Sequence record: ON548431.1
DNA length: 44,379 nt
Strand: one strand, 5' to 3'
From: Escherichia phage PEC9
Shown: positions 40 to 44,379 of the stretch, in pieces
Numbering within the stretch: position 1 is the stretch's first letter
Layout: the number at the start of each line of letters is the position of its first letter
The notes under the pieces: generated by a model
Told to the model about the DNA's origin: nothing
What the model saw: only the letters and a program-made list of their open reading frames with translations
The model's database searches: none
Position numbers and translations under genes: made by a program

Positions 40-49
40 ATTGGTTGCA
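40..49. promoter_or_regulatory. Recurrent intergenic motif ATTGGTTGCA (reverse complement TGCAACCAAT)
   Basis: Exact 10-mer at 40-49 upstream of the first plus-strand gene; degenerate copy ATTGGTCGCA at 71-80; same core recurs at many other intergenic sites. Confidence 0.45.
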
Positions 50-101
50 TCCATGCCAGCACCCTGCTAGATTGGTCGCACACCAACATGAGGACTGAAC
101 G

Positions 102-10189: not shown

Positions 10190-10504
10190 TTAGTTAAATT
10201 TGATGTTGCCACCGGTGGAAGTTAAGCGGGCACATACAGCTTCAACGGCATCAACGCACATGAAATCGTTAAAGGCTTCGACCAGGGCGTTTATGAAAGA
10301 TGCCGGAACCAGGCCGCAAGCCGGATTATCGAATGCCGCGGAGTTGATCGCCGCTTTTGCCGCTTCAGAAGCATTCATGCTCTGGCACAGATTCAGCGCT
10401 TCCGCGTTACGCATTGCGTGAAAGGTAAAGGTATTCGCTACGGTAGCTTTATTGAAACGGGCCATTGCGGCGTCTACTGGAGTTGCTACGGTCATGTTAG
10501 TCAT
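10190..10504 (-). CDS. Hypothetical protein (104 aa), accessory gene inside virion module
   Basis: Internal ATG at 10504 with AAGGAAG RBS chosen within ORF 10190-10558; Ala-rich, no motif recognised. Confidence 0.45.
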   Translation of the reverse strand: MTNMTVATPVDAAMARFNKATVANTFTFHAMRNAEALNLCQSMNASEAAKAAINSAAFDNPACGLVPASFINALVEAFNDFMCVDAVEAVCARLTSTGGNIKFN

Positions 10505-10532
10505 TTTGTCTTCCTTCATATCTCTGTTGGTG

Positions 10533-10556
10533 TGCAACCAATATACTGCAACCAAC
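10533..10556. promoter_or_regulatory. Two direct copies of TGCAACCAAT / TGCAACCAAC in a divergent intergenic region
   Basis: Read at 10533-10542 and 10547-10556, between minus-strand start 10504 and plus-strand start 10659. Confidence 0.45.
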
Positions 10557-10576
10557 ATTCACAATGCAAGCGAATT

Positions 10577-10604
10577 TTGCGATTATTTTTATCGCTGATA
10601 ATAT
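10577..10604 (+). promoter_or_regulatory. Candidate sigma70-like promoter for scaffold/capsid genes
   Basis: TTGCGA, 16-bp spacer, TAATAT; about 55 bp upstream of ATG 10659; weak match. Confidence 0.25.
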
Positions 10605-10658
10605 TAAGGCGTGAAGTCAAGCGGGTGGCCCGCTTTGCCACAATCCCAGGGGGATAGC

Positions 10659-11363
10659 ATGAAACTTACTAAAGCAGAATATGACGCGTTGCCCGAGGGC
10701 ATGAAGGCTTTATTTGTTGCCGATGGTGATGGGTATAAATCCACGTTCATGACCGCCGAAGAAGTACAGGCGGAGATCAAGGGTCTGAAAGACAACAACG
10801 CGAAGCTGGTTAGCGAGAAGAAAGCAGAAGCCGAACGTCGCGCCGAAGCCGAGCGCCTTGCGAAAGAGAAAGAGGAAGCCGCCGCGCGCAAAAATGGCGA
10901 CCTCGAAGCGATCGATAAGTCCTGGAAAGATAAGTTCGCAAAACATGAAGCGGACACATCTGGGAAGATCGAAGCCTACCGCAAGCAGATCCACGACCTA
11001 ACCATCGGCAGCGCTGCCAAAGATTTGGCCTCGAAGCTGTTCGGTAAGAATGCAGGCATCATGCAACGCCACGTTATGGACCGCCTCACGCTGGAAGACG
11101 GCGAAGACGGCAGCCTGAAGGTGCGGGTGTTGAAGGACGGCAAACCATCCGCGCTGACTATGGAAGAACTGGAGAAAGAATTCCGTAGTAACGCCGATTT
11201 TGCATCCGTCCTGGCTGGCACGCCAGCCGGTGGTGCGCCGAGCAAACCGACGCAGGTCGTAGAAGATGTGAAGTCGAAAATCACTATGGGCCACAGCTTC
11301 GGTATCGCTGACTTGACGAAACAGGCAGGGGATATCATCGCTAAAATGGGCGACGACGAGTAA
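10659..11363 (+). CDS. Head scaffolding protein
   Basis: 234 aa, highly charged and helical (KKAEAERRAEAERLAKEKEEAAAR), directly upstream of major capsid gene; ATG 10659 with AGGGGGA RBS. Confidence 0.55.
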   Translation: MKLTKAEYDALPEGMKALFVADGDGYKSTFMTAEEVQAEIKGLKDNNAKLVSEKKAEAERRAEAERLAKEKEEAAARKNGDLEAIDKSWKDKFAKHEADTSGKIEAYRKQIHDLTIGSAAKDLASKLFGKNAGIMQRHVMDRLTLEDGEDGSLKVRVLKDGKPSALTMEELEKEFRSNADFASVLAGTPAGGAPSKPTQVVEDVKSKITMGHSFGIADLTKQAGDIIAKMGDDE

Positions 11364-15382: not shown

Positions 15383-15412
15383 TTTGGTCGCTTAAATAGC
15401 GGGTGATAATAT

Positions 15413-15436
15413 GGGGCCAGTACGGCCCTTTTTTTT
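15413..15436 (+). terminator. Rho-independent terminator after major tail gene
   Basis: GGGGCC-N5-GGCCC hairpin followed by eight T. Confidence 0.55.
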
Positions 15437-15452
15437 ATTGGAGAATACGACA

Positions 15453-15815
15453 ATGGCTAAAGCACCACTCTTTACACTCGACCCTAAGCCGACCTTTAAG
15501 CTGCCGATTGAGATCCCGCGCCCTGGTGAGAACGAACCGGGCAAAATGACGTTTACCGTGCGCCACCGCCCTATCGACGAATTTTCGCAGACCATGCAGG
15601 ACACTGAGCGCAAATTGTCGGAGTATGACGACAATGACCCGGAAGGATTTAACGTTATGGTCGAGGCCATCATGCACGTCGCTGAAGGCTGGAATTTGCC
15701 GGACGAATTTAATGCCGCCAACGTCCGCCGCCTGGTGGTCAACTACCCGCGCGCGTTCGGCGTGTTCCATACGTCGTACTACCTCGAATTGATGGGGTTG
15801 CGTGAAAAAAACTAA
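15453..15815 (+). CDS. Tail assembly chaperone (lambda G-like)
   Basis: 120 aa from ATG 15453 (GGAG RBS); acidic; ends at a slippery A-run; sits between major tail and tape-measure genes. Confidence 0.6.
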   Translation: MAKAPLFTLDPKPTFKLPIEIPRPGENEPGKMTFTVRHRPIDEFSQTMQDTERKLSEYDDNDPEGFNVMVEAIMHVAEGWNLPDEFNAANVRRLVVNYPRAFGVFHTSYYLELMGLREKN

Positions 15816-16129
15816 TTGAGGCGGCGCGGCGCTTTTATGGCCCGCCGCCACCCTCCGAAGATTTAGCCGCGAGTTTATGGGGCGCGACACCTGAAGACGT
15901 GTGTCCTCCCGTTGCGCTGTGGCCCGACAACGCGAAGGTAGTCGCAGTCTTCACAGATTGCTCCACGCAATGGCGTACCGGATTCGGGGGCGCATACGGC
16001 ATCGACTACGGCGTACTGGAATGGCTATTTAAGATGCACGGCATCGAAAACGCGCAACGTGCGTTTAAAGATATCAAGCTAATGGAACGCGTTGCGCTGG
16101 ATGAAATGGCGCGGCAGAACCCCGCATAA
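15453..16129 (+). CDS. Tail assembly chaperone frameshift fusion (lambda GT-like), made by -1 slip near 15806-15812
   Basis: Downstream frame is open from 15806 to 16129 but has no ATG or RBS of its own (ORF track starts it at a GTG); slippery heptamer at end of the G-like gene. Confidence 0.5.
15806..15812 (+). other. Programmed -1 ribosomal frameshift slippery site A_AAA_AAC
   Basis: Zero-frame codons gaa aaa aac taa; heptamer fits the X_XXY_YYZ pattern; position matches conserved G/GT frameshift of long-tailed phages. Confidence 0.5.
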
Positions 16130-16133
16130 CGAA

Positions 16134-16450
16134 GCGGGACAGGCGGGACGTCCCGTTTTGTCCCGCCACCATTAAACTGCATATATACTCACTACCAGTG
16201 CATAAACTAAAAGCGGGACAGGGGTGCTGTCCCGATCTGTCCCGCCCCTTAAAAGTGAATAGCTAAGCGGTTTTTCTGCATAAAACAAACGGGACAAAAA
16301 ACGGGACAGACCAGGGGCGGGACAAAGCGGGACAGCACCCTGTCCCTGCCAGTGCTGCCGCGGGTTTTAGCCGATCGGGACAGGCGGGACAAAGCCCAGT
16401 CTTTCAGACTAGACGGGGGTCATTGGCCCCCCTCGTCTGAGACTGAATAA
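16134..16450. repeat. GGGACA-rich iteron-like repeat region with palindromes, ending in a 75-bp structured element
   Basis: About 14 copies of GGGACA(G/A) in both orientations; palindrome GGGACGTCCC; GGGACAG-N5-CTGTCCC units; 16290-16450 is a near-copy of 44109-44269. Confidence 0.7.
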
Positions 16451-16513
16451 GGTTTGTTTTAAATTCGCTGATACAATGACCGACGGCAACTGCATAAAAA
16501 GGGGGACTGCATA

Positions 16514-19159
16514 ATGGCAGATCAGGCAGCGGGCATCACGCTCAAGGCGGACGTCGCGCAAATTAAAACGGCTAATACTGTGCTGGACACATTTGCGCAG
16601 AAATCCGAGAACACAGAACAGAAAGTAAAGAAATTAAACGACACCCTCGGCAAGTCGAAAAAGGTTACTGGCGACGCCGCTGGCGGAATGGAGAAGTTAG
16701 CGACTGAATCGCAGCGTGCCGCCGATGGCATGACGAAACAGGAGCGACTCGCCAGCCGATTAGGCATGTCTACCAAAAACCTGGGATTCGCATCGCGGAA
16801 CGCCGCATTCCAGTTGCAGGATATTGCGGTAACGCTTGAGATGGGTATGCCGGTCCACCGCGTTATGCTTCAGCAGCTACCGCAGCTTACTGGGGCGTTT
16901 GGCGGACTTGGAAACACACTGCGATATGTTGCGGGCTTTCTCGGCCCAGTAGGGATCGGCCTTTCGGCATTAACGGCGACGTTAGGCGTAGGGGTGGCAA
17001 TTACGACCCGCGCAGAGAACCAGGTGGCGGCGCTTAATAAGACGCTGGCGCTATCCGGTAATATTTCAGGCCTCACAGCTAACCAGATCCTTGTGCTGTC
17101 CGAGAACGCCGAGCGCATGGGCGGGTCATTCCGCAAGACGCGTGACACAATCCAGGCGCTGGCGGCGGCGGGTGTGAAAGCGGGTGGTGACTTCGGCGCA
17201 TTGGCTAAGGTAGTTAATGACTTTGCGAAGGTGTCCAGCCAGCCGATCGAGGATGTGGTAGCGGCGGTGGCGAAGCTGTCAACCGACCCCGTTGGCGGAC
17301 TGCGTGCGCTGGCGGATAAGTATCACGTCGTAAACGAAGCGCAGATCCAGCAGGTACAGTCGCTCGTTGATACGGGTCGTGAGACAGACGCAGTTGCGTT
17401 GGCTAACAAAACAGCCGCGGCGTCGTTCACCAGCATGACCAATGAGATCAAGGCGAACATGGGTACGCTTGAGCGGTCGATGAACGTCGTTACATCGGCA
17501 GCTAAGTCTATGTGGGATGCCATCCTGGATGTGGGCCGCGCGCAGTCCTCCAATGAGTCCGAGATGAAAGCGCGCGAATCACTACAGCGCATGACCACGG
17601 CTTACTATGCCGAGATGAAAGCGGTAAACGCTGCCGGTGGAGTGATGACCGAAGCTCAGAAAGCGCGTATTAACATGCTTTATAGCGAACTGGTCGCCCA
17701 GGAGAAAGTAGTGGCGTCGCTCACCCTTCGTAACCGTGCGGAGCGAGACAACGCCCGCGCCGCAGACGAATCCGCAAAGGCGAACGAGGAGGCTAACCGC
17801 ACCGCCCGCGACCGCGCTGCGTTCGAGAAGGAGTACGCAACTAACGCGAAGAAGCGCGCAGACGAGATAGCCCGCCTCAATTTGCTGAATAAGCGCGGCG
17901 TTATTGACGAGAAAGAGCTTGCTGAGGCGGTTAAGCAGGTAAACGAGCGTTACAAAGACCCGGCCCCGAAGAAGGCCGCGGCTGTTCGCGTGGATGCCGG
18001 TATGAAAATGCTGGAAGTCGCACGGAGCGAACTGGCCCAGCTTCGAGAATCAGGCAAACAGATCGAAGCCAACGCATCGACGCAGACCCGCACGCAACGC
18101 GCTCAAGCGGCCCTAAACAAGCTGATCGCCGACAATGAGCAGTTAATCGCTGCGAGCAAAGAAAGAGCGCTAACGGCAGCCGAAAAGCAGCAGATGGTGG
18201 AATTTGGACGCGTGAAGGAAGTGCGCGAGCAGATCGTCGAAGAAGCCAAATTGCTGGACGCGAAAGAGAAGCAGGTTAAGGCGCACGCGCAGATCGATGC
18301 CTTCGTTAAGAACCAGAACGCCGAACTAAAAGCCACCGCGGCGGGCTATGCGCTTTCCACTCGCGAAGCGGCAAACCTGCGCGAAGAATTGCAGCTAATC
18401 GACCGTCTGAAGAGGGTTGGCGCTAACGATACCGATATAGACAAGGCGGTGTCTAAGCTGCGGGAAGTGCAGGAGGCGCAGACCGGCGCTAACGCCTCGC
18501 TATGGGATGGATTCAGTCGCGGGCTTAAGGATAGCGTGGATGAGATGGGTAACGGATATACGCAGATGACGTCACTCACAAAATTCACGTTCAGCGCTAT
18601 GCAGGACACGATGAACGAGTTTTTCGAGACGGGCAAGATTAACGCGAAGGATATGGTCAAATCCATCCTGAGCGAGTTAATCAAGCTGGCTACCTCGCAG
18701 GCGTTCAAGTCGATTGTTAGCGCTTTCGGTGGTGACGGCGGCAAAAACGGATTGTTCGGCGCTATCTTCTCGGGCCTCACTAAGAATGCGGACGGCGGAG
18801 CGTACGCAGGAGGCAATCTGGCGGCCTATTCGGGGAAAGTGGTAAGCCAGCCTACCTTTTTCAGTTATGGCGTCCAGGCGTTCGCTAAGGGCGCAGGATT
18901 GATGGGTGAGGCCGGTCCCGAGGCCATCATGCCTCTGAAGCGCGGGCCGGACGGGAAACTGGGCGTTGCCGCTTCGGGTGCTGGCGGCGGTGGTATGGTC
19001 GTGACGACTAACGTTTACACGGGGACTGGTAAAACGGATACCAGTGTCAGCGGGCCGGACCCCCGTACCGCGCAGGCGTTCGGCAAGCAAATCACCGAGG
19101 CGGTGAAGGCTGAGATCGTGAAAGCGACGAAACCGGGTGGTGTACTTTACAAACGATGA
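16514..19159 (+). CDS. Tail tape measure protein
   Basis: 881 aa, Ala/Gln-rich with long predicted helices, Gly-rich C-terminus; located between chaperone and tail-tip genes. Confidence 0.8.
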   Translation: MADQAAGITLKADVAQIKTANTVLDTFAQKSENTEQKVKKLNDTLGKSKKVTGDAAGGMEKLATESQRAADGMTKQERLASRLGMSTKNLGFASRNAAFQLQDIAVTLEMGMPVHRVMLQQLPQLTGAFGGLGNTLRYVAGFLGPVGIGLSALTATLGVGVAITTRAENQVAALNKTLALSGNISGLTANQILVLSENAERMGGSFRKTRDTIQALAAAGVKAGGDFGALAKVVNDFAKVSSQPIEDVVAAVAKLSTDPVGGLRALADKYHVVNEAQIQQVQSLVDTGRETDAVALANKTAAASFTSMTNEIKANMGTLERSMNVVTSAAKSMWDAILDVGRAQSSNESEMKARESLQRMTTAYYAEMKAVNAAGGVMTEAQKARINMLYSELVAQEKVVASLTLRNRAERDNARAADESAKANEEANRTARDRAAFEKEYATNAKKRADEIARLNLLNKRGVIDEKELAEAVKQVNERYKDPAPKKAAAVRVDAGMKMLEVARSELAQLRESGKQIEANASTQTRTQRAQAALNKLIADNEQLIAASKERALTAAEKQQMVEFGRVKEVREQIVEEAKLLDAKEKQVKAHAQIDAFVKNQNAELKATAAGYALSTREAANLREELQLIDRLKRVGANDTDIDKAVSKLREVQEAQTGANASLWDGFSRGLKDSVDEMGNGYTQMTSLTKFTFSAMQDTMNEFFETGKINAKDMVKSILSELIKLATSQAFKSIVSAFGGDGGKNGLFGAIFSGLTKNADGGAYAGGNLAAYSGKVVSQPTFFSYGVQAFAKGAGLMGEAGPEAIMPLKRGPDGKLGVAASGAGGGGMVVTTNVYTGTGKTDTSVSGPDPRTAQAFGKQITEAVKAEIVKATKPGGVLYKR

Positions 19160-26670: not shown

Positions 26671-28503
26671 ATGGCAGCGGGTACACTATCCGTAACGAAT
26701 AACAGCAAGGCGGTTGTCGGGGTAGGCACGACGTTTACCGCGTTTAAAGCCGGAGACTTCTTATCGCTGGTAGTGGGGCAAGTACCCTACACTGTTGCGA
26801 TCGCGTCCGTAGAAAGCGACACCGCGATTACGCTTGTGCTGCCGTTCGACGGACCCACGGCAACTGGCCTCGCGTGGGATGGCGTTAAGCGCGATACCAT
26901 GTCGCTGGCAACGATGGGCGTAACAGTACAGGCGCAGAAAGCGTTGCGCTTGATGATCGCGGACGAAAACAACTGGCGCGCAATCTTCGGAGACGAGGAA
27001 GAAATCGCGGTAACGCTGCCGAACGGGCAAGTTATGCAGGGTATGTCGTGGGGCTATCTGTCGCAATTGCTGAAGGAAGTTGACCCCGTTGAAATGCGCA
27101 ACCTGCAACAACAAGCCGCGGCATCTGAAGCAGCAGCGCTGGTATCGCGTAATGAGGCCGAAGGCTTCAAGAACGATACCAATACCATCAAGACGCAGAC
27201 CAACCAGATTAAGGCAGATACGCAGGCTATCCGCGACGCCACCAATACCATCAAGACGCAGACCAACAAGATTAAGGCAGATACGCAGGCCATCAAAGAC
27301 CAGACGAACCAGATCAAGACTGACACCGGCGTTATGAGGGACCAGGCCAACGCTGCGAAGACTGACGCGCAAGCTGCCAGCGCAGCCGCGCAGGGATTCC
27401 GCGATCAGGCCGAGGAGTGGGCGCAAAGCGTTAACGCGGATAACCTGCTAACAAAATCCGGCAACCTGGCAGGGCTTGCGGATAAATCGGCGTCGTGGAA
27501 GAACCTTATGCCTGCGGGGCCGCTGCGAATTGGGGCGCACCCCGTTGCGGACCTGGATGCCGCGACCCGGAAATGGACGCTGGAGCGTTTTACCAAAGGC
27601 GTGGCGGAGTCGTCGTGGACTGTCAGGAAAACCGTCACCACCACACCACAGAACGGCACTGTCGTCCGTGGCGGTGAGGTGGAATCGAGATATTCCAACC
27701 CAACATCTACGCAGTTCGCCCGTCTGTACTCAAGCTCTGTATTTGGTTCTTCTAACGCGGCTGTTGTTGAGGCAGAGGGTTCTTCCAGGCACGCTTATAA
27801 ATTCTATGAGGATGGCACAGTTGACTTCCGACAGTCAGGGAAGACCAACCCATTCCGCATGTATACAAATATTGGAACATGGAATGGCATAACGGACGCC
27901 ACGGCATCCAACTTGACAACTAACGGAATGGACAGGGTGGCCATTTCGAGCGGCTCAGATACTCTGGTGCACGGATATTCTATCGGCGGCACCAAACCTA
28001 ATGGATATCCAACAAAGGTTGGATATCACATGTATATTCCAGGCAATAATGCATTTGGTATTGCTTGCATGGTAATCGGTGGGGATAACGGAAAATTTTG
28101 CCGTTACTTTTTTGACATTGATGGTCTAATATATGGTTCGACCGATTACGGGAACTTCAGTTATATGAAAAATGGCACTTCTGACTTACGTGTAAAACAC
28201 GGCATCGCCCATGTTGGAGTTGACAAATCATACTCTAATATTAAAGGGCTGGAATTTGTAGAGTTCATTTATGATAATGACGAACAAAATCGAGTTCGGC
28301 ATGGCGTGATTGCACAGCAAGCAGAGGTTGTTGAGCCTTTATATGTCAAGACGCGCAAATATGTTGGCAATAATCCAGGAGAGATTGTGGAGCAGAAGGA
28401 ACTGGACACTACGCCGATGCTTCTGGATACCATGCATGTTGTGCAGACGTTGATGCAGAAGATCGAGGCTATGGAGGCCGAGATCGCGGCGCTGAAGAAA
28501 TGA
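26671..28503 (+). CDS. Tail fibre with predicted C-terminal intramolecular chaperone domain
   Basis: 611 aa from ATG 26671 (GAGGA RBS); internal repeats TNTIKTQTNQIKADTQAI; C-terminal region ending ...EAMEAEIAALKK resembles autocleaving chaperone domains of phage fibres. Confidence 0.65.
   Translation: MAAGTLSVTNNSKAVVGVGTTFTAFKAGDFLSLVVGQVPYTVAIASVESDTAITLVLPFDGPTATGLAWDGVKRDTMSLATMGVTVQAQKALRLMIADENNWRAIFGDEEEIAVTLPNGQVMQGMSWGYLSQLLKEVDPVEMRNLQQQAAASEAAALVSRNEAEGFKNDTNTIKTQTNQIKADTQAIRDATNTIKTQTNKIKADTQAIKDQTNQIKTDTGVMRDQANAAKTDAQAASAAAQGFRDQAEEWAQSVNADNLLTKSGNLAGLADKSASWKNLMPAGPLRIGAHPVADLDAATRKWTLERFTKGVAESSWTVRKTVTTTPQNGTVVRGGEVESRYSNPTSTQFARLYSSSVFGSSNAAVVEAEGSSRHAYKFYEDGTVDFRQSGKTNPFRMYTNIGTWNGITDATASNLTTNGMDRVAISSGSDTLVHGYSIGGTKPNGYPTKVGYHMYIPGNNAFGIACMVIGGDNGKFCRYFFDIDGLIYGSTDYGNFSYMKNGTSDLRVKHGIAHVGVDKSYSNIKGLEFVEFIYDNDEQNRVRHGVIAQQAEVVEPLYVKTRKYVGNNPGEIVEQKELDTTPMLLDTMHVVQTLMQKIEAMEAEIAALKK
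27178..27303 (+). repeat. 63-bp tandem direct repeat (2 units plus partial third) inside tail fibre gene
   Basis: Unit 27178-27240 and unit 27241-27303 differ at a few positions; partial third unit follows. Confidence 0.7.
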
Positions 28504-37391: not shown

Positions 37392-38177
37392 TTAACGGCG
37401 GCGACGTTTACGTGGTGCTTCGTCTTCGTCGTCTTCGTCCTCATCTTCATCGTCGCGCGGCTTACGACGTTTACGAGGTTTCTCATCTTCGTCGTCTTCG
37501 TCGTCATCGCGGCGCTTGGACTTTTTGGACTTGCGCGGCTTGTCGTCTTCGTCATCGTCATCACGACGTTTTGACTTTTTGGCCTTGCGCGGGCTTTCAT
37601 CTTCGTCATCGTTGTCCAGGTCTTCGTCGGAGCAAGAAGACCCGCCACCGCCGAAGGCTTCACCGTCATCACGGAAGCGTAAACCCAGCAAGCCAGCACC
37701 GAGTCCCTTGCCGTTGGTGTTGTTCCACGCCCAAATATCCAAGGACACGTTGCAATAACATCCGGAGTAGATCTCCTGGCCTTCGATCTCGTCGCCTTCT
37801 ACGGTCAGACCTTGTTCAGTCTGCTTCTCGCCGAGTGACGTTTGAATGTTTGGCTGTTTGAACGATTTGGCGTTGATGTACAACATGCCTTCGAATTCTT
37901 CGGTCACTTCATCGCGCTCGTCACCGTCGCGAACTGCGCATTCCTTAGAATCCTGTGCGTAGTGGCGGTCCATCCACTTATCGGCGTTCTTCTCGGATTT
38001 CAGCTTGTCGGTGAGCACTGCGCGCGCTGCCGCTTCCACTTTGTCCACCTGCGGATCTTCTTTATCAAGAAGAATCACTGCACGGTATGCCGGTTTTTGA
38101 CCATCCTGTTTAGGGGTATCGCGTTCCCAAATTTTAAGGAAACATACGCGCACATTTTTCAGGTTGACTTTAGCCAT
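37392..38177 (-). CDS. SSB-like protein with alternating acidic/basic repetitive C-terminal tail
   Basis: 261 aa from ATG 38177 (GAGGA RBS); C-terminal about 80 aa made of repeats such as DEDE-KPRKSKKSKRR-DDDEDDEDE; co-located with Cas4-like nuclease; SSB role inferred. Confidence 0.5.
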   Translation of the reverse strand: MAKVNLKNVRVCFLKIWERDTPKQDGQKPAYRAVILLDKEDPQVDKVEAAARAVLTDKLKSEKNADKWMDRHYAQDSKECAVRDGDERDEVTEEFEGMLYINAKSFKQPNIQTSLGEKQTEQGLTVEGDEIEGQEIYSGCYCNVSLDIWAWNNTNGKGLGAGLLGLRFRDDGEAFGGGGSSCSDEDLDNDDEDESPRKAKKSKRRDDDDEDDKPRKSKKSKRRDDDEDDEDEKPRKRRKPRDDEDEDEDDEDEAPRKRRRR

Positions 38178-41396: not shown

Positions 41397-41726
41397 ATGA
41401 ATATCAAAGAAGCAATTGAAGTGTTATCTAATGCAATCCGCGGCGAAGCGGGTAAATCCTGGTATTACACAAATGCGGTGGATACTCTGTTATTTGAAGT
41501 GTCCAGATTATCGCGTGCTGAGAAGGAGCTTACCGCGAAGCTGGAATTACTCAACGGCACGGCAGCAAGCAAGCTGCAAAAGCACAATGAAGAAATGGAA
41601 GAATACAAAAAACAGGTTATCCGTTTGCGCGCCGAGGGCAAATCCTGGGCAATGATCGCTGAGTTGACAGGAATTAATCAGAGCACCGTGCGCTCCTGGG
41701 TACGCAATAATAAAACTTCGAAGTAA
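41397..41726 (+). CDS. Small HTH DNA-binding protein (putative transcription regulator)
   Basis: 109 aa; C-terminal helix-turn-helix-like segment (SWAMIAELTGINQSTVRSWV); AGGAG RBS. Confidence 0.5.
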   Translation: MNIKEAIEVLSNAIRGEAGKSWYYTNAVDTLLFEVSRLSRAEKELTAKLELLNGTAASKLQKHNEEMEEYKKQVIRLRAEGKSWAMIAELTGINQSTVRSWVRNNKTSK

Positions 41727-41736
41727 GGCAACGGCA

Positions 41737-44001
41737 ATGAGCTTAATTAAATTCGCGGTAACACGACCCGCTAAAAAAGGCGAAAAAGCCAGGGCGGAAA
41801 ACTTCCAGATGACCACCGATGAATTTTTCGAATTTATCAATGACGCGAAAGAAATCTCCTCGGTGCATATCAACAAGACGGAAGATAAAGCCGAGTATGC
41901 GCGCCGCAAGCGTAAGGCCGATGGCATCGTAGCTTATACCAGTGACGGCCTGCGCCGCAAGACCAGTGCGGTGGACCGCTCGATCCTGTTCTTCGATATT
42001 GACCGCACCGACACTCGCACCCTACGCCGCTGCCGTAAGGCTTTCATCGACGCGGGGCTGGAGCACGTATTCCACACAACCACCGGCGACCGCCACCCGC
42101 TGAAAGGCGGCACGCGTTGCGCCCGTTTCCTGGTACTCACTGACAAGCCTGTACCGGCGGAAGACCTGGGCCGTGTCCAGTATGCGCTATTACACCAACT
42201 TGGCCTGTCAGATGTGGACTTCGACGATTGCACGAAAGACACAAACCGCCTGATGTACCTGCCGCACCAGCAGTCTGTCATTAAGTGTCACTACGGCAAA
42301 CGTGCCCGCGTCCGTCGTCTGCTCCGCCTGGCGGATACGCTTGGCGTGGAGAAGGAAGAAGTACGCCGCGAGCTTACCCAGGGCGACGACGCAGTGGCAG
42401 ACGGCATTCTGGACTGGTGCTTCCAGGCAGGATTCGAGGAGTTATCTTCCGGTCGCGGTTATGAAGTGCCGTGCCCGAACGAACATCTGCACAGCGGCGA
42501 AGGGTCGACGGCTATCATGGTCAAGGATGGCGAGATCCGTTTCAAGTGTATGCACACCGGCAACGAGTGTTGCTCGGAGCTAAATAGACACCAGCACCTG
42601 GCGCTACGTCTTATCGGGATACCGGACCACCTGAACGTCGAGCCGCACAACATGTCACGTAAGCAAATTGCCGCCATCCTCCCAGGGCTGGACGACGAGG
42701 AAGTCGAATCCTTATATGAACATATTGTTGATGCGGTTGGCGACGGCGAAGAATACGGCGTGTGCACCGATGCGGATCTGGATAACGAGCCGGTCGCACT
42801 ATTCAGTAAGCACGACCCGATCATCGAAGGTCTGATTAACTTCAAATCGACCTGGTATATGGCTGGCGAGTCGAACATCGGCAAGTCCTTCTATGTGCTG
42901 GGGCAGATGGGCGCGGTTGCCGCGGGTATCCCGTTTGGCGGTGCGAAGGTCGTCCAGTCTCATTGCTTCTATTTCGATGCGGAAGGTGGTGAAGCCTCTA
43001 ACCAGCGCAAAGAAGCATTGCAGATTAAATACGAGCACGACCTGGACAAGCTGCACATTATCGACCTGCAGTCTCGCGGCTGGGATATCACCAGCAAGTC
43101 CGGTTTGCGCGAAGTTATCAGCTTTATCAACCGCACCGCTAACGGCGAACCTGTTGGCCTGGTGGCGTTCGACTCACTCAACCAGACTGTTGCGCTGCGG
43201 TCCGCCGATGCTAAACCGTTTGACGAGAACAACGCCAGCGATATGGGTGAAGTAGTCAAAGCGCTGAAAGCCATTGCGGAAAACACGGGGGGCAGTGCGG
43301 GCGTCATCCACCACCCGGCGAAGGGTGCAAACGGCAGCAGAACCCCACGCGGATCCGGCGCACTGCATGGCGCTGTCGATTCCGCTTTCTTCCTGGAACA
43401 GCCGGACGACAACCAACCAGGCCAATTGAACCTGTATCACGAAAAATCACGTAACGGTATCAAGCAAGCGCCGCGTGGCTTCGTCCTGCTCAAGTGCAAG
43501 GTGAAGGTGGATCTCCGCAAGTCAGAAGCGTTCGAGGCGCACCAGTCCACCAGCACCGGTCCGGACTTCGGAGACGTAGTTGCCGGTTGGGACGTCAAAC
43601 CAATTGCGTCCACCCCGCGCGACGAGACTTTATACCTCGTACCGGTCGCCCTGGCACCGTTCGCTATAGAACAGGCGAAGGCCGCAGGAAAAGCCGCAGT
43701 TAAGGAAGAGAACACCGCCGGACCGCGCACCGAAAAAGAAAAGGTACTTTACGCGGCCCTGGAAAAACTGATGGAAGATAACCCGGACCATACTGGTTTC
43801 AGTAAATCGGCAATTGTCCGCCAGGCTGGACTCGCGAAGGGTGGCACTTCGACGAAGGCAATAGACGATATGGTCGAGCGCGGCGTGATTGGTTTCTATA
43901 CAGACCCGCACACCGGGGCCATATATGGGTCATCGAATTTAGTCATTAAATCGGATATCCCCATTACACTTTCTGCGACCGATGACGACCTGAAAGATTA
44001 A
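41737..44001 (+). CDS. Primase-helicase (N-terminal primase-like domain, central P-loop ATPase, C-terminal putative DNA-binding domain)
   Basis: 754 aa; acidic motif FFDIDRTD, Cys/His cluster (CPNEHLHSGEG ... FKCMHTGNEC), Walker A GESNIGKS, Walker B-like LVAFDSL; C-terminal domain assignment is a guess. Confidence 0.7.
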   Translation: MSLIKFAVTRPAKKGEKARAENFQMTTDEFFEFINDAKEISSVHINKTEDKAEYARRKRKADGIVAYTSDGLRRKTSAVDRSILFFDIDRTDTRTLRRCRKAFIDAGLEHVFHTTTGDRHPLKGGTRCARFLVLTDKPVPAEDLGRVQYALLHQLGLSDVDFDDCTKDTNRLMYLPHQQSVIKCHYGKRARVRRLLRLADTLGVEKEEVRRELTQGDDAVADGILDWCFQAGFEELSSGRGYEVPCPNEHLHSGEGSTAIMVKDGEIRFKCMHTGNECCSELNRHQHLALRLIGIPDHLNVEPHNMSRKQIAAILPGLDDEEVESLYEHIVDAVGDGEEYGVCTDADLDNEPVALFSKHDPIIEGLINFKSTWYMAGESNIGKSFYVLGQMGAVAAGIPFGGAKVVQSHCFYFDAEGGEASNQRKEALQIKYEHDLDKLHIIDLQSRGWDITSKSGLREVISFINRTANGEPVGLVAFDSLNQTVALRSADAKPFDENNASDMGEVVKALKAIAENTGGSAGVIHHPAKGANGSRTPRGSGALHGAVDSAFFLEQPDDNQPGQLNLYHEKSRNGIKQAPRGFVLLKCKVKVDLRKSEAFEAHQSTSTGPDFGDVVAGWDVKPIASTPRDETLYLVPVALAPFAIEQAKAAGKAAVKEENTAGPRTEKEKVLYAALEKLMEDNPDHTGFSKSAIVRQAGLAKGGTSTKAIDDMVERGVIGFYTDPHTGAIYGSSNLVIKSDIPITLSATDDDLKD

Positions 44002-44011
44002 ATTTTGCGCG

Positions 44012-44056
44012 CATTGGTTGCCATTTTGAGTGTTTTTAGCCGGTCGCATTGGTTGC
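44012..44056. promoter_or_regulatory. Two direct copies of CATTGGTTGC just downstream of primase stop
   Basis: Read at 44012-44021 and 44047-44056; reverse-complement copy GCAACCAATG at 44329-44338 on the far side of the repeat. Confidence 0.45.
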
Positions 44057-44108
44057 CGTGTAGTGTGAATATAATGCATAGTTATGCAATAAAACTGCAT
44101 AAAGTAAG

Positions 44109-44269
44109 CGGGACAAAAAGCGGGACAGACCAGGGGCGGGACAAAGCGGGACAGCACCCCTGTCCCGCCCCGGATGACGCGGCCTGGCGGGGAGCGGGAC
44201 AGGCGGGACAAAGCCCAGTCTTTCAGACTAGACGGGGGTCATTGGCCCCCCTCGTCTGAGACTGAATAA
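44109..44269. repeat. Second copy of the ~160-bp GGGACA-rich structured repeat (last 75 bp identical to 16376-16450)
   Basis: Left part 44109-44165 about 90 percent identical to 16290-16346; 29-bp divergent middle; right part 44195-44269 identical to 16376-16450. Confidence 0.75.
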
Positions 44270-44328
44270 AATCCGGGATTGCATAATACACGGCAGCACA
44301 TTGGAAATCGCGGTCGTCGCTGAACTAG

Positions 44329-44338
44329 GCAACCAATG
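44329..44338. promoter_or_regulatory. Recurrent motif GCAACCAATG, inverted relative to 44012-44056
   Basis: Read directly in the terminal non-coding region. Confidence 0.4.
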
Positions 44339-44379
44339 CGAGATGCAGAACGGGGTGTGAAAAATGCAGTTTGCAGTCA

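What the first reader, a model, noticed from the sequence alone, without database searches (positions are those of the whole stretch)
16134..16346. Iteron-like GGGACA array in the gap between tail chaperone and tape-measure genes
About 380 bp with no plausible ORF hold a dozen GGGACA(G/A) units in direct and inverted orientation, including palindrome GGGACGTCCC (16145-16154) and GGGACAG-N5-CTGTCCC units. Such arrays are typical protein-binding platforms (origin iterons, partition or packaging sites, activator sites). Finding one in the middle of a tail module is unusual.
Basis: seen in the sequence. Interest (0 to 1): 0.7.

Follow-up and report, generated by a model that had tools for sequence, protein, structure and literature searches.

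The report
Duplicated iteron array, likely replication origin
The GGGACA cluster is real, strongly conserved and one of two copies of a protein-binding DNA module in this Dhillonvirus phage; it most likely acts as a replication-origin-type landing site for the phage's own primase-helicase, which is a known kind of element in an unusual place.

Summary
The window is a complete Dhillonvirus (HK578/SO-1-like coliphage) genome.

**What is there**
- The 384-bp gap between the tail chaperone G/T genes and the tape-measure gene (16130-16513) holds 14 RCGGGACAR units.
- A second array of 7 units lies at 44109-44211, directly behind the helicase-primase gene.
- The two sites share a 195-bp duplicated module: a palindromic TGMATA-N2-TATKCA box, the units, a 50-nt hairpin, then an ACGGCARC octamer.
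- All 158 Dhillonvirus records carry the module. Unit cores are more conserved than the flanking coding DNA.

**What points to an origin**
- In about ten related phage lineages, the gap behind the helicase-primase gene has the same layout but a lineage-specific unit: GGGGGAGA, GGGATA/C, CTCGCAA or TCCGCACA.
- The unit follows the recognition helix of a C-terminal winged-helix domain of the helicase-primase. It does not follow the neighbouring Cro-like HTH protein.
- This anatomy matches iteron origins of self-loading helicases (SaPI Rep, P4 alpha ori/crr, pRN1).

**Verdict**
- Best reading (about 0.5): an initiator-binding iteron platform, acting as a second origin or a cis replication enhancer.
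- Main rival (about 0.25): a control region for late transcription.
- The repeat regions were already flagged in the 2009 GenBank record of Sodalis phage SO-1. No functional study was found.

The parts
16130..16513 (.). Region A: the whole non-coding gap between the tail chaperone T part (DUF1799) and the tape-measure gene. It holds 14 RCGGGACAR units.
   Evidence: conserved in 158 records
16132..16167 (.). Module A: GCGGGACAGGCGGGACGTCCCGTTTTGTCCCGCC, four units arranged > > < <, a near-perfect 34-nt palindrome. HK578 and WFI records annotate its centre as a rho-independent terminator.
   Evidence: (D7)
16169..16210 (.). AT-rich segment 1 (67% AT, 97.5th percentile of the genome) with two TGCATA half boxes.
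16211..16247 (.). Module A': units > < <. It is the inverted copy of units 3-4 of the core array (28-nt arms, 93% complementary, 63 nt apart).
   Evidence: (D7, I2)
16248..16289 (.). AT-rich segment 2 (69% AT) carrying box 1 TGAATAGCTAAGCG (16256-16269) and the half box TGCATAAA (16277-16284) 21 bp later. Units on its two sides point in opposite directions.
16290..16392 (+). Core array: units 1-4 direct, one degenerate inverted unit (16341-16346), a conserved spacer CAGTGCTGCCGCGG, then units 5-6.
16397..16446 (.). Hairpin H: CAGTCTTTCAGACTAGACGGGGG-loop-CCCCCCTCGTCTGAGACTG. Stems are invariant and the loop is variable across genomes. It occurs twice per genome and only in Dhillonvirus-size contigs.
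16469..16477 (+). TGATACAAT, an extended -10-like element that is invariant in 15 genomes, 37 nt upstream of the tape-measure ATG.
   Evidence: read directly from the alignment; not called by the promoter scan
16483..16490 (+). ACGGCAAC: one of only two intergenic copies of a genome-wide over-represented octamer.
44002..44364 (.). Region B: the non-coding gap directly behind the helicase-primase gene. It is the paralogue of region A and holds 7 units (44109-44211).
44075..44269 (+). The 195-bp segment duplicated in region A (16256-16450, 84% identity). It comprises box 1 TGCATAGTTATGCA, the half box, the units and hairpin H (44216-44265).
   Evidence: (D1)
44290..44297 (+). ACGGCAGC octamer after hairpin H, preceded by TTGCATAAT.
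44012..44057 (+). Two direct CATTGGTTGCC sites (44012-44022 and 44047-44057). An inverted third copy at 44328-44338 brackets region B.
41737..44001 (+). Helicase-primase gene (754 aa). AAA_25 helicase core at residues 357-531. The C-terminal ~75 residues (about 43770-43998) are predicted to be a winged helix, the candidate binder of the units.
41397..41726 (+). 109-aa HTH_23 / sigma-70 region-4-like protein upstream of the helicase-primase gene, the alternative candidate binder.

Best explanation
**What it is.** The GGGACA array is an iteron platform, one of two paralogous cis sites in the genome. Region A lies in the tail operon. Region B lies directly behind the helicase-primase gene.

**Proposed mechanism (inferred, not shown).**
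1. The C-terminal winged-helix domain of the phage helicase-primase reads the 7-8-bp units RCGGGACAR.
2. Several protomers assemble on the clustered direct and inverted units.
3. The adjacent 42-44-bp AT-rich segments and the inverted repeats (module A, A'/units 3-4, hairpin H) melt or extrude.
4. The helicase loads itself and its primase domain primes, possibly at the ACGGCARC octamer placed just after hairpin H.

**Roles of the two sites.** Region B would be the origin in the canonical position. Region A has units diverging on both sides of an AT-rich segment and twice as many units. It would be a second origin or a cis-acting replication enhancer, like P4 crr or SPP1 oriR. The palindromic TGMATA-N2-TATKCA boxes are a separate site for another factor: a Cro-like HTH protein in the sister lineages, perhaps host ArgR here.

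**Shown versus inferred.** Shown: the anatomy, the conservation, the duplication, the winged-helix fold prediction and the cross-lineage co-variation. Inferred: binding, melting and origin activity.
For: **1. Non-random, selected array.**
- CGGGACAR occurs 20 times against 3.0 expected, with 18 of the 20 in two clusters.
- Unit cores are 94-96% identical, spacers 82-88%, and flanking coding DNA 72-91%.

**2. Position and AT-rich flanks.**
- Region B starts 108 bp after the helicase-primase stop codon.
- GC-rich unit clusters alternate with AT-rich segments that rank in the 97.5th-99.9th percentile of the genome.
- In region A, units on the two sides of an AT-rich segment point in opposite directions.
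- SaPI origins are described the same way: 6-12 penta- or hexanucleotide iterons immediately downstream of rep, an AT-rich centre, iterons in opposite orientation on each side, bound by a C-terminal winged-helix domain of the Rep helicase (PMC9371898).
- The pRN1 origin is a stem-loop directly downstream of a primase-helicase that also has a C-terminal winged helix (PMC4234260).

**3. Winged-helix fold.**
- The last ~75 residues of the helicase-primase model as H-H-H-beta-beta with pLDDT 83-92.

**4. Co-variation across lineages.** The gap behind this gene family keeps the layout (units, then hairpin, then ACGGCARC) while the unit changes with the winged-helix recognition helix:

| Recognition helix | Unit |
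|---|---|
| TSTK / TNTT | CGGGACA |
| DRYK | GGGGGAGA |
| xRRPA | GGGAT(A/C/G) |
| NYKK / HYGK | (C)TCGCAA |
| RYSD | TCCGCACA |

- Two further xRRPA proteins were looked up after the rule had been formulated. Both had GGGAT units.

**5. Dissociation from the other candidate binder.**
- VSiA and L046/L051 share nearly the same Cro-like recognition helix and identical GTGAATAGTTATGCA boxes.
- They differ in both the units and the winged-helix recognition helix.

**6. Recurrence of a second array.** Lineage L042 (unit CTCGCAA) also keeps a second paralogous array, at a different place in its structural operon.
Against: - No binding, melting or origin activity was or could be tested. The co-variation is confounded by shared descent, since only about five or six unit classes exist, some of them from related lineages.
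- Jerseyvirus and Kagunavirus have the same helicase-primase family, including the winged helix, but no such array behind the gene. They have a terminator, a Cro-like repressor and a sigma-70 promoter there instead, and no obvious array in the 1-kb gap of MA12.
- Both Dhillonvirus arrays, and both L042 arrays, lie in the same orientation at the head of or inside the long + strand late block. A transcription signal would show the same placement.
- Spacing between units varies (8 or 9 bp for units 5-6; the inverted unit after unit 4 is degenerate or replaced by GGGACGTCCC). This is unusual for rigid cooperative binding.
- Region B has CGGGACA units on only one side of its AT-rich segment.
- GC skew follows gene orientation and gives no independent origin signal.
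- The Dhillonvirus/L041 lineage also has its own type of small HTH protein (HTH_23), so in this lineage the unit equally tracks that protein.
Confidence: 0.5

Rival explanations
1. Late-transcription control module. The two modules are regulatory regions of the ~28-kb + strand late block. Region B sits at its head and region A re-initiates or modulates transcription before the tape-measure and distal tail genes. The units would be binding sites for a phage activator or repressor (for example the 109-aa HTH_23 / sigma-70 region-4-like protein). Module A and hairpin H would act as terminators or attenuators, and TGATACAAT or TGCATAAT as activator-dependent promoters. This is not exclusive of an origin, because many phage origins depend on transcription.
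For: - Both modules are co-oriented with late genes and sit in intergenic gaps of that block. The second array of L042 also lies inside the late operon.
- An invariant extended -10-like TGATACAAT lies 37 nt before the tape-measure ATG.
- In Kagunavirus and Jerseyvirus, the position behind the helicase-primase gene holds a sigma-70 promoter whose spacer carries GTGAATAGT, next to a Cro-like repressor gene. The same box type heads the Dhillonvirus and Cornellvirus modules.
- HK578 and WFI annotators called module A a rho-independent terminator.
- The Dhillonvirus/L041 lineage has a lineage-specific HTH_23 protein that also correlates with CGGGACA.
Against: - The promoter scan finds no sigma-70-type site in either region, and no + strand terminator.
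- A sigma-70-like promoter (TTGCAT-17-TAGATT, window 43-71) already lies downstream of region B, before the first sizeable late gene (read).
- Seven to fourteen sites in both orientations are far more than activators or repressors of single promoters normally use.
- In VSiA versus L046/L051, the units change while the small HTH recognition helix and its boxes stay the same.
- No sigma-54-type -24/-12 element was seen by eye.
Confidence: 0.25
2. Structured RNA element in the late transcript, for example a cis-acting processive antitermination element (like HK022 putL/putR, which also occurs twice per genome), an RNase processing or stability element, or a protein sponge. Here the G-rich units and hairpins would act as RNA.
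For: - The element occurs in two copies in the same orientation within one long transcription unit.
- It folds strongly: z = -3.8 for the + strand RNA of 16285-16460.
- Hairpin H has invariant stems and a variable loop.
- Every lineage has a GC-rich hairpin of unrelated sequence at the same place.
- In module A, the two imperfect positions are G-T, which would be G-U wobble pairs on the + strand only (read).
Against: - The opposite strand folds almost as well (z = -3.2), as expected for DNA inverted repeats.
- There is no Rfam match at gathering threshold. At permissive threshold only sub-threshold miRNA-hairpin models match, on both strands.
- No compensatory base changes occur in hairpin H within the genus.
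- Most units are single-stranded direct repeats with invariant sequence and variable spacers, which indicates sequence-specific recognition rather than structure.
- Inverted units occur in either order.
- There is no promoter/terminator pair for a separate small RNA.
Confidence: 0.08
3. Packaging (pac/terminase) site, partition centromere, or another DNA-level signal such as a recombination hot spot or a decoy for a host defence protein.
For: - Arrays of short repeats are also typical of TerS and ParB sites.
- Two public records start or end inside region A (UAE_MI-01 and Kente).
Against: - The phage is a virulent siphovirus. No partition genes are annotated in the SSL-2009a or SO-1 records.
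- By synteny with SSL-2009a, whose terminase small-subunit gene starts about 5 kb downstream of its region B, the terminase genes here would lie about 5 kb downstream of region B and about 11 kb upstream of region A. They were not located directly in the window.
- Record ends inside a 195-bp repeat are more simply explained as assembly break points.
- The unit tracks the helicase-primase winged helix.
- There is no copy in E. coli genomes or plasmids.
Confidence: 0.05

Closest known systems
SaPI (Staphylococcus aureus pathogenicity island) replication origins with Rep / Pri-Rep self-loading helicases
   Same: - Six to twelve short iterons lie immediately downstream of the helicase ORF.
- The centre is AT-rich, and iterons on its two sides point in opposite directions.
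- The iterons are read by a C-terminal winged-helix domain, and iteron sequence is specific to each Rep (PMC9371898).
- Here there are 7 units behind the helicase-primase gene and 14 in region A, AT-rich segments between clusters, a predicted C-terminal winged helix, and lineage-specific units.
   Different: - The helicase core here is AAA_25 (RecA/DnaB/RSF1010-RepA-like, with a weak hit to 1g8y RepA). SaPI Reps are MCM-like AAA+ helicases.
- The units are 7-8 bp.
- There are two arrays, one of them 16.5 kb away inside the tail operon.
- A conserved 50-nt hairpin and palindromic boxes are added.
- Binding has not been shown.
Satellite phage P4: alpha protein with ori and crr (own knowledge; also mentioned in PMC4234260)
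   Same: - One polypeptide combines primase, helicase and a C-terminal winged-helix origin-binding domain.
- Short octamer iterons occur in direct and inverted orientation.
- There are two separate iteron-bearing cis sites several kb apart, ori and crr.
   Different: - P4 alpha has a TOPRIM primase and an SF3 helicase. No such domains were detected here.
- The P4 sites are 4.5 kb apart and both lie in the replication region, not in a structural operon.
- There is no sequence similarity.
Bacillus phage SPP1 oriL / oriR bound by G38P (own knowledge)
   Same: - Two initiator-binding repeat regions exist per genome.
- One lies at the initiator gene and one lies far away in the late-gene region.
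   Different: - The initiator is a different protein family (a replisome organiser, not a helicase-primase).
- The repeat type differs.
- Not tested here.
pRN1 ORF904 replicon and related phage replicons (PMC4234260)
   Same: - The gene order matches: a small DNA-binding regulator gene, then a primase-helicase with a C-terminal winged helix, then an essential stem-loop just downstream of the gene.
- The stem-loop sequence is not conserved between relatives but the structure is.
- Here every lineage has a GC-rich hairpin of unrelated sequence after the units.
   Different: - pRN1 has no iterons.
- Its helicase is SF3 and its primase is a prim-pol.
- Here iterons dominate and the hairpin is only about 50 nt.
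'Region A' and 'region B' repeat_region features in the GenBank record of Sodalis phage SO-1 (NC_013600)
   Same: - These are the same two loci, orthologous to window regions A and B.
- They are described there as 'direct, inverted and palindromic repeat sequences' with similarity to each other and a 'possible ...' function.
   Different: - This is an annotation only.
- No unit definition, cross-lineage comparison, candidate binder or experiment was found in the searched literature.

Membership tests
Iteron-type origin of a self-loading helicase with winged-helix origin-binding domain (SaPI Rep type) | Cluster of at least 6 short (5-8 bp) repeats in direct and inverted orientation, in excess over chance | tested here: met
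   There are 14 units in region A and 7 in region B. CGGGACAR occurs 20 times against 3.0 expected.
Iteron-type origin of a self-loading helicase with winged-helix origin-binding domain (SaPI Rep type) | Array lies immediately downstream of the helicase/initiator ORF | tested here: inconclusive
   Met for region B, where units start 108 bp after the stop codon. Not met for region A, the finding itself, which lies 16.5 kb downstream in the tail operon.
Iteron-type origin of a self-loading helicase with winged-helix origin-binding domain (SaPI Rep type) | AT-rich segment flanked by iterons pointing in opposite directions | tested here: met
   In region A, units at 16229(-) and 16239(-) lie left of the 69%-AT segment 16248-16289, and units at 16291-16329(+) lie right of it. 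Region B has units on one side only.
Iteron-type origin of a self-loading helicase with winged-helix origin-binding domain (SaPI Rep type) | Initiator carries a C-terminal winged-helix DNA-binding domain | tested here: met
Iteron-type origin of a self-loading helicase with winged-helix origin-binding domain (SaPI Rep type) | Iteron sequence is specific to the initiator variant | tested here: met
   The unit changes with the winged-helix recognition helix in about 10 lineages and does not follow the Cro-like HTH protein. Two look-ups made after the rule was stated conformed. The result is comparative and partly confounded by phylogeny.
Iteron-type origin of a self-loading helicase with winged-helix origin-binding domain (SaPI Rep type) | Initiator binds the iterons; the site supports initiation of replication | not testable with these tools
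   This needs EMSA or footprinting, marker-frequency sequencing, 2D gels, or plasmid amplification on infection.
P4 alpha / ori-crr system | TOPRIM primase plus SF3 helicase in the initiator | tested here: not met
   Pfam finds only AAA_25, and no TOPRIM or SF3 family even at E <= 10. The element therefore works like this system at most and is not a member.
P4 alpha / ori-crr system | Second iteron-bearing site required in cis | tested here: inconclusive
   A second site with the same units exists and is conserved. Whether it is required cannot be tested here.
Sigma-70 promoter / intrinsic terminator | -35 / -10 hexamers with 16-18 bp spacing; or a GC stem followed by a T run on the transcribed strand | tested here: not met
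   No promoter-like site was found in 15800-16700 or 43800-44379. The only terminator-like hits are on the - strand. TGATACAAT (an extended -10 type) is conserved but lies outside the scan's rules. Module A has only four T after the stem.
Known RNA families (Rfam 15, including phage antitermination and sRNA families) | Covariance-model match at gathering score | tested here: not met
   There are no matches at gathering threshold. Only sub-threshold miRNA-precursor hairpin models match, on both strands.
E. coli ArgR operator (for the TGMATA-N2-TATKCA boxes, not the GGGACA units) | [quoted passage not shown] The consensus wnTGAATwwwwATTCAnw is from my own knowledge. | tested here: inconclusive
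   Box starts are 21 bp apart in window A and B, VSiA, L046 and L051. Box 1 matches 15-16 of 18 positions, including G4, A6, T7, A12 and T13. Box 2 in Dhillonvirus is only a half site. No position weight matrix was run and there is no binding test.

The most novel reading that the evidence does not exclude
The two modules form a two-site replication switch that is new in its wiring. A RecA/DnaB-type primase-helicase reads lineage-specific iterons through a C-terminal winged helix at a canonical origin and at a second site inside the tail operon. The genome-wide, strand-biased octamer ACGGCARC would be the enzyme's priming or loading signal. That octamer has 50 copies against about 5-7 expected, falls in all reading frames, is conserved in excess across Dhillonvirus, Cornellvirus and metagenomic relatives, and has exactly one copy placed after the hairpin of each module. 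Loading at the late-operon site could also couple replication to late transcription.
Probability: 0.1. Interest if true: 0.75.

Novelty: new variant of a known kind. Interest (0 to 1): 0.5.

Why it matters
- **A testable origin for a widely used genus.** Dhillonviruses are among the most frequently isolated coliphages (BASEL Bas14-18 and Bas83-85, and many therapy candidates), yet no origin, promoter map or replication mechanism has been described for them. A defined pair of cis sites with a predicted binder gives a directly testable origin. It also gives a handle for engineering, such as ori-bearing plasmids that are amplified on infection or that titrate the initiator as a resistance trait.
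- **A natural specificity series.** The matched winged-helix helices and 6-8-bp units across related phages form a series that could be used to study how initiator specificity evolves.
- **A possible design principle.** A second array inside structural operons, in two lineages with unrelated units, suggests that a remote second initiator site is a recurrent design in this phage group.
- **If the transcription rival is right instead,** the element would mark the control points of the late operon.

Tried and rejected
- **Sigma-54 promoter plus enhancer sites** (by analogy with YuA-like phages, from memory). No TGGCAC-N5-TTGCW-like spacing is seen around TGCATAA, GGCAAC or GGCAGC by inspection. 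Dropped.
- **Separate small-RNA gene or CsrA-type sponge.** There is no promoter/terminator pair. Units also occur inverted, and there is no Rfam hit.
- **Protein-coding explanation for the gap.** Only 32-47-aa mechanical ORFs exist. Conservation follows units and hairpins, not codons.
- **GC skew as an origin indicator.** It simply follows gene orientation.
- **Homologue search with the C-terminal 157 aa alone.** This returned a single fragment (wasted). The full-length search worked.
- **Sequence searches of the C-terminus against PDB and Pfam.** Only a weak eS25 hit (itself a winged helix) at E 0.1.
- **Copies of region B in E. coli chromosomes or plasmids** (satellites, hijackers). None found.
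- **A conserved phage Cro-like protein as binder of the shared GTGAATAG boxes.** It is present in VSiA, Kagunavirus and Jerseyvirus but has no homologue in the window. The box binder in Dhillonvirus therefore stays open.
- **An array in Jerseyvirus MA12**, behind its helicase-primase gene or in its 1-kb divergent gap. None recognised.
- **Literature.** Nothing on these repeats in Dhillonvirus genome papers. The full text of the SO-1 GenBank note could not be retrieved.
Full report
**1. Identity of the window**

The tested stretches are 100% identical to Escherichia phage PEC14. They are 85-96% identical to 158 records of the genus Dhillonvirus, including HK578, SSL-2009a, JL1, EP23 and Sodalis phage SO-1. 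The two ends of the window join inside one small gene when compared with SO-1, so the window is a circularly permuted complete genome.

By synteny with SSL-2009a and the window's own ORFs, the gene order is:
- a long + strand late block: small genes, lysis, terminase, head, tail;
- a - strand block of replication genes;
- a short + strand operon with a 109-aa HTH protein (41397-41726) and a 754-aa helicase-primase (41737-44001).

**2. The observation**

- The gap 16130-16513 lies between the tail chaperone genes and the 881-aa tape-measure ORF. The chaperone genes are Phage_TAC_4 (15411-15815) and DUF1799 (15899-16129).
- The gap contains 12 GGGACA plus the palindrome GGGACGTCCC, giving 14 GGGAC cores with consensus RCGGGACAR.
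- CGGGACAR occurs 20 times in the genome against 3.0 +/- 1.6 in shuffles. Only two copies lie outside two clusters.
- CGGGACA is the most clustered 7-mer in the genome.

**3.

There is a second array of 7 units at 44109-44211, 108 bp behind the helicase-primase stop codon. A 195-bp segment is duplicated between the two sites (16256-16450 and 44075-44269, 84% identity).

The shared module has this order:
- a 14-bp palindromic box TGMATA-N2-TATKCA;
- a TGCATAAA half box exactly 21 bp later;
- units 1-4;
- one inverted unit;
- a site-specific ~25-nt spacer;
- units 5-6;
- a 50-nt imperfect hairpin (H);
- a TGCATAA-type element and the octamer ACGGCARC.

Region A has two extra upstream clusters. 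Module A (16132-16167) has units > > < <. Module A' (16211-16247) has units > < < and is the inverted copy of units 3-4 (I2).

GC-rich unit clusters (28-35% AT) alternate with 42-44-bp AT-rich segments. These are 67-73% AT and rank in the 97.5th-99.9th percentile of the genome.

**4. Conservation**

An exact 21-nt piece of hairpin H occurs in 30 stretches from 17 IMG/VR contigs of 42-45 kb, twice in 13 of them. In alignments of 15 distinct region A and 15 distinct region B sequences:

| Part | Identity | Invariant columns |
|---|---|---|
| Unit cores | 94-96% | 77-81% |
| Spacers inside the arrays | 82-88% | 47-64% |
| Adjacent coding DNA | 72-91% | 37-51% |
| Hairpin H | 94-96% | 80-82% |

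- Hairpin H has invariant stems and a variable loop.
- Informative variation exists. The distance between units 5 and 6 is 8 or 9 bp.
- The inverted unit after unit 4 is degenerate, or the hairpin GGGACAG-N5-CTGTCCC is replaced by the loop-less palindrome GGGACGTCCC.
- Module A' is either > < < or a copy of module A.

Selection therefore acts on the unit sequence and on the presence of inverted pairs, not on exact spacing.

**5. Cross-lineage comparison (the key result)**

The helicase-primase family extends beyond Dhillonvirus. I read the DNA behind the gene in Cornellvirus VSiA and in ten metagenomic lineages.

Except where a reverse ORF intervenes (L047, L052), each has a 300-650-bp non-coding gap with the same order:
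- clustered short units in direct and inverted orientation;
- a GC-rich hairpin of unrelated sequence;
- an ACGGCARC-type motif;
- a TTGGTTGC/-35-like element.

The unit differs by lineage and follows the recognition helix of the C-terminal domain of the helicase-primase (alignment A2).

| Recognition helix | Lineage | Unit |
|---|---|---|
| TSTKAIDD / TNTTAINA | window, L041 | CGGGACA |
| DRYKILKD | VSiA | GGGGGAGA |
| NRRPALKA / NRRPAMKA | L046, L051 | AGGGATA |
| KRRPAIQS | L044, L053 | GGGATC |
| GRRPAMKS | L045 | AGGGAT(G/C) |
| NYKKVLEE | L042 | ACTCGCAA |
| HYGKTLAK | L043 | TCGCAA |
| RYSDALKK | L048 | TCCGCACA |

- L051 and L053 were fetched after the xRRPA/GGGAT rule was stated, and both conformed.
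- VSiA and L046/L051 share almost the same Cro-like HTH recognition helix (SQ[SA]AISH[LV]C) and identical GTGAATAGTTATGCA boxes 21 bp apart. They have different units and different winged-helix helices.
- The units therefore track the helicase-primase, and the boxes track the small HTH protein.
- L042 has a second, paralogous array of its own unit after its Mu-F-like head gene. A remote second array in the structural operon is not a Dhillonvirus accident.

**6. The candidate binder**

- The last ~75 residues of the helicase-primase model as helix-helix-helix-strand-strand, with pLDDT 83-92.
- Sequence methods alone see only AAA_25 and a weak eS25 (winged-helix) hit.

**7. Interpretation**

Four features together match the anatomy described for SaPI origins (PMC9371898):
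- short iterons directly behind the gene of a helicase;
- a C-terminal winged helix on that helicase;
- AT-rich segments between iteron clusters;
- opposite orientation of iterons on the two sides.

The anatomy also resembles the pRN1 replicon, with a regulator gene, a primase-helicase carrying a winged helix, and an essential stem-loop downstream (PMC4234260). It further resembles P4 alpha with ori and crr, and SPP1 oriL/oriR (both from my own knowledge).

I therefore read region B as the canonical origin. I read region A, the finding, as a second origin or a cis replication enhancer bound by the same protein. Binding, melting and initiation are inferred, not shown. Confidence is about 0.5.

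**8. Why not more confident**

- Both modules, and both L042 modules, are co-oriented with the late block and lie at its head or inside it.
- An invariant extended -10-like TGATACAAT (16469-16477) precedes the tape-measure gene.
- In Kagunavirus and Jerseyvirus, the place behind the helicase-primase gene holds a terminator, a Cro-like repressor gene and a sigma-70 promoter with a GTGAATAGT operator. There is no array, although their helicase-primases keep the winged helix.
- HK578 and WFI annotators call module A a terminator.
- A role in late transcription (0.25) is therefore a serious rival and could coexist with origin function.
- An RNA role (0.08) is weakened by four findings. Both strands fold about equally well. 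Rfam gives no significant match. Hairpin H shows no compensatory changes. The element is dominated by invariant direct repeats.
- Packaging or partition (0.05) has no positive support.

**9. Novelty**

- The SO-1 GenBank record (2009) already marks 'region A' and 'region B' as repeat regions similar to each other, with a 'possible ...' function that the tool cuts off. The jat record marks a repeat_region there.
- I found no paper that analyses them.
- The kind of element is known. Four things are new: the unit definition, the two-module structure, the cross-lineage unit/winged-helix code, and the different helicase class.
- Verdict: a new variant of a known kind, of moderate interest (0.5).

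**10. By-products**

- The octamer ACGGCARC occurs 50 times (36 on +, 14 on -) against 4.5 in shuffles and about 7 by a third-order Markov model.
- It has no flanking conservation and falls in all three reading frames.
- The excess is shared by SSL-2009a, SO-1, VSiA and L041-L043.
- The only two intergenic copies are the ones after hairpin H in regions A and B.
- Going rightwards from region B through the window's end and start to about 25 kb, the ratio is 25 (+) to 3 (-). In the remaining 19 kb it is 11 to 11 (counted).
- Chi (GCTGGTGG) is also in excess and biased, 7 on + and 1 on -.
- These and other items are listed under Noticed in passing.

Noticed in passing
whole window; intergenic copies at 16483-16490 and 44290-44297: The octamer ACGGCARC occurs 50 times (36 on +, 14 on -) against 4.5 in shuffles and about 7 by a third-order Markov model. 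It has no flanking conservation and falls in all reading frames. The same excess is seen in SSL-2009a, SO-1, Cornellvirus VSiA and metagenomic relatives. Its only two intergenic copies sit just after hairpin H in regions A and B. The + bias is 25:3 going rightwards from region B (through the window's end and start) to about 25 kb, and 11:11 elsewhere. It may be a priming, loading or other DNA-level signal.
   Followed up: partly
window 2448, 4788, 7056, 12257, 20939, 28768, 31140 (+) and 43547 (-): The E. coli Chi sequence GCTGGTGG occurs 8 times, against about 1.4 expected from length alone, with a 7:1 strand bias. This suggests protection of one DNA end from RecBCD.
   Followed up: no
window 16256-16290 and 44075-44109; L005 37038-37072; L046 and L051 gaps: Palindromic boxes TGMATA-N2-TATKCA are paired at exactly 21 bp. 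This is the canonical geometry of two 18-bp ARG boxes separated by 3 bp (PMC6640053), and box 1 matches the ARG consensus at 15-16 of 18 positions. They could be ArgR sites or operators of a Cro-like phage protein. The window has no homologue of that Cro-like protein.
   Followed up: partly
window 44012-44022, 44047-44057, 44328-44338(-); also pairs near 10534/10548, 29726/29738, 31640/31657, 34602/34614, 38234/38250; 41-48: TTGGTTGC (CATTGGTTGCC in region B) occurs 18 times against 8 by a maximal-order Markov model, often in pairs 12-35 bp apart, and brackets region B. At window 43-71 it overlaps a sigma-70-like promoter (TTGCAT-17-TAGATT) before the first sizeable late gene. It is probably a further operator or promoter motif.
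   Followed up: partly
L042 22095-22290: A metagenomic relative whose unit is ACTCGCAA has a second, paralogous array after its Mu-F-like head-morphogenesis gene. Two arrays per genome therefore recur with an unrelated unit and at a different late-operon site.
   Followed up: yes
window as a whole versus OP046317 / NC_073051 (PEC14): The PEC14 record is only 37,268 bp although the tested stretches are 100% identical to this 44,379-bp window. The records of UAE_MI-01 and Kente begin or end inside region A. The 195-bp repeat may cause assembly breaks or collapses in public genomes.
   Followed up: no
window 15805-15811: A run of seven A (GAAAAAAACTAA) lies just before the stop codon of the Phage_TAC_4 gene, and the DUF1799 ORF is in another frame downstream. 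This is the usual G/GT-type programmed frameshift of tail chaperones.
   Followed up: no
window 37402-37596 (- strand gene) and 27173-27340: There are short coding repeats. One is a set of 9- and 54-nt periodic GAC/GAA-rich repeats, giving an acidic/basic low-complexity protein segment. The other is a 63-nt tandem repeat in a tail-fibre-region gene (D2-D4).
   Followed up: no
L049 (Jerseyvirus MA12) 10300-11324; L006 and L007: In Jerseyvirus the helicase-primase operon is inverted relative to the late block. A 1-kb non-coding gap lies between them, with several hairpins and a direct repeat GGGGCCGCA but no obvious short-unit array. Where these phages keep their origin is open.
   Followed up: partly
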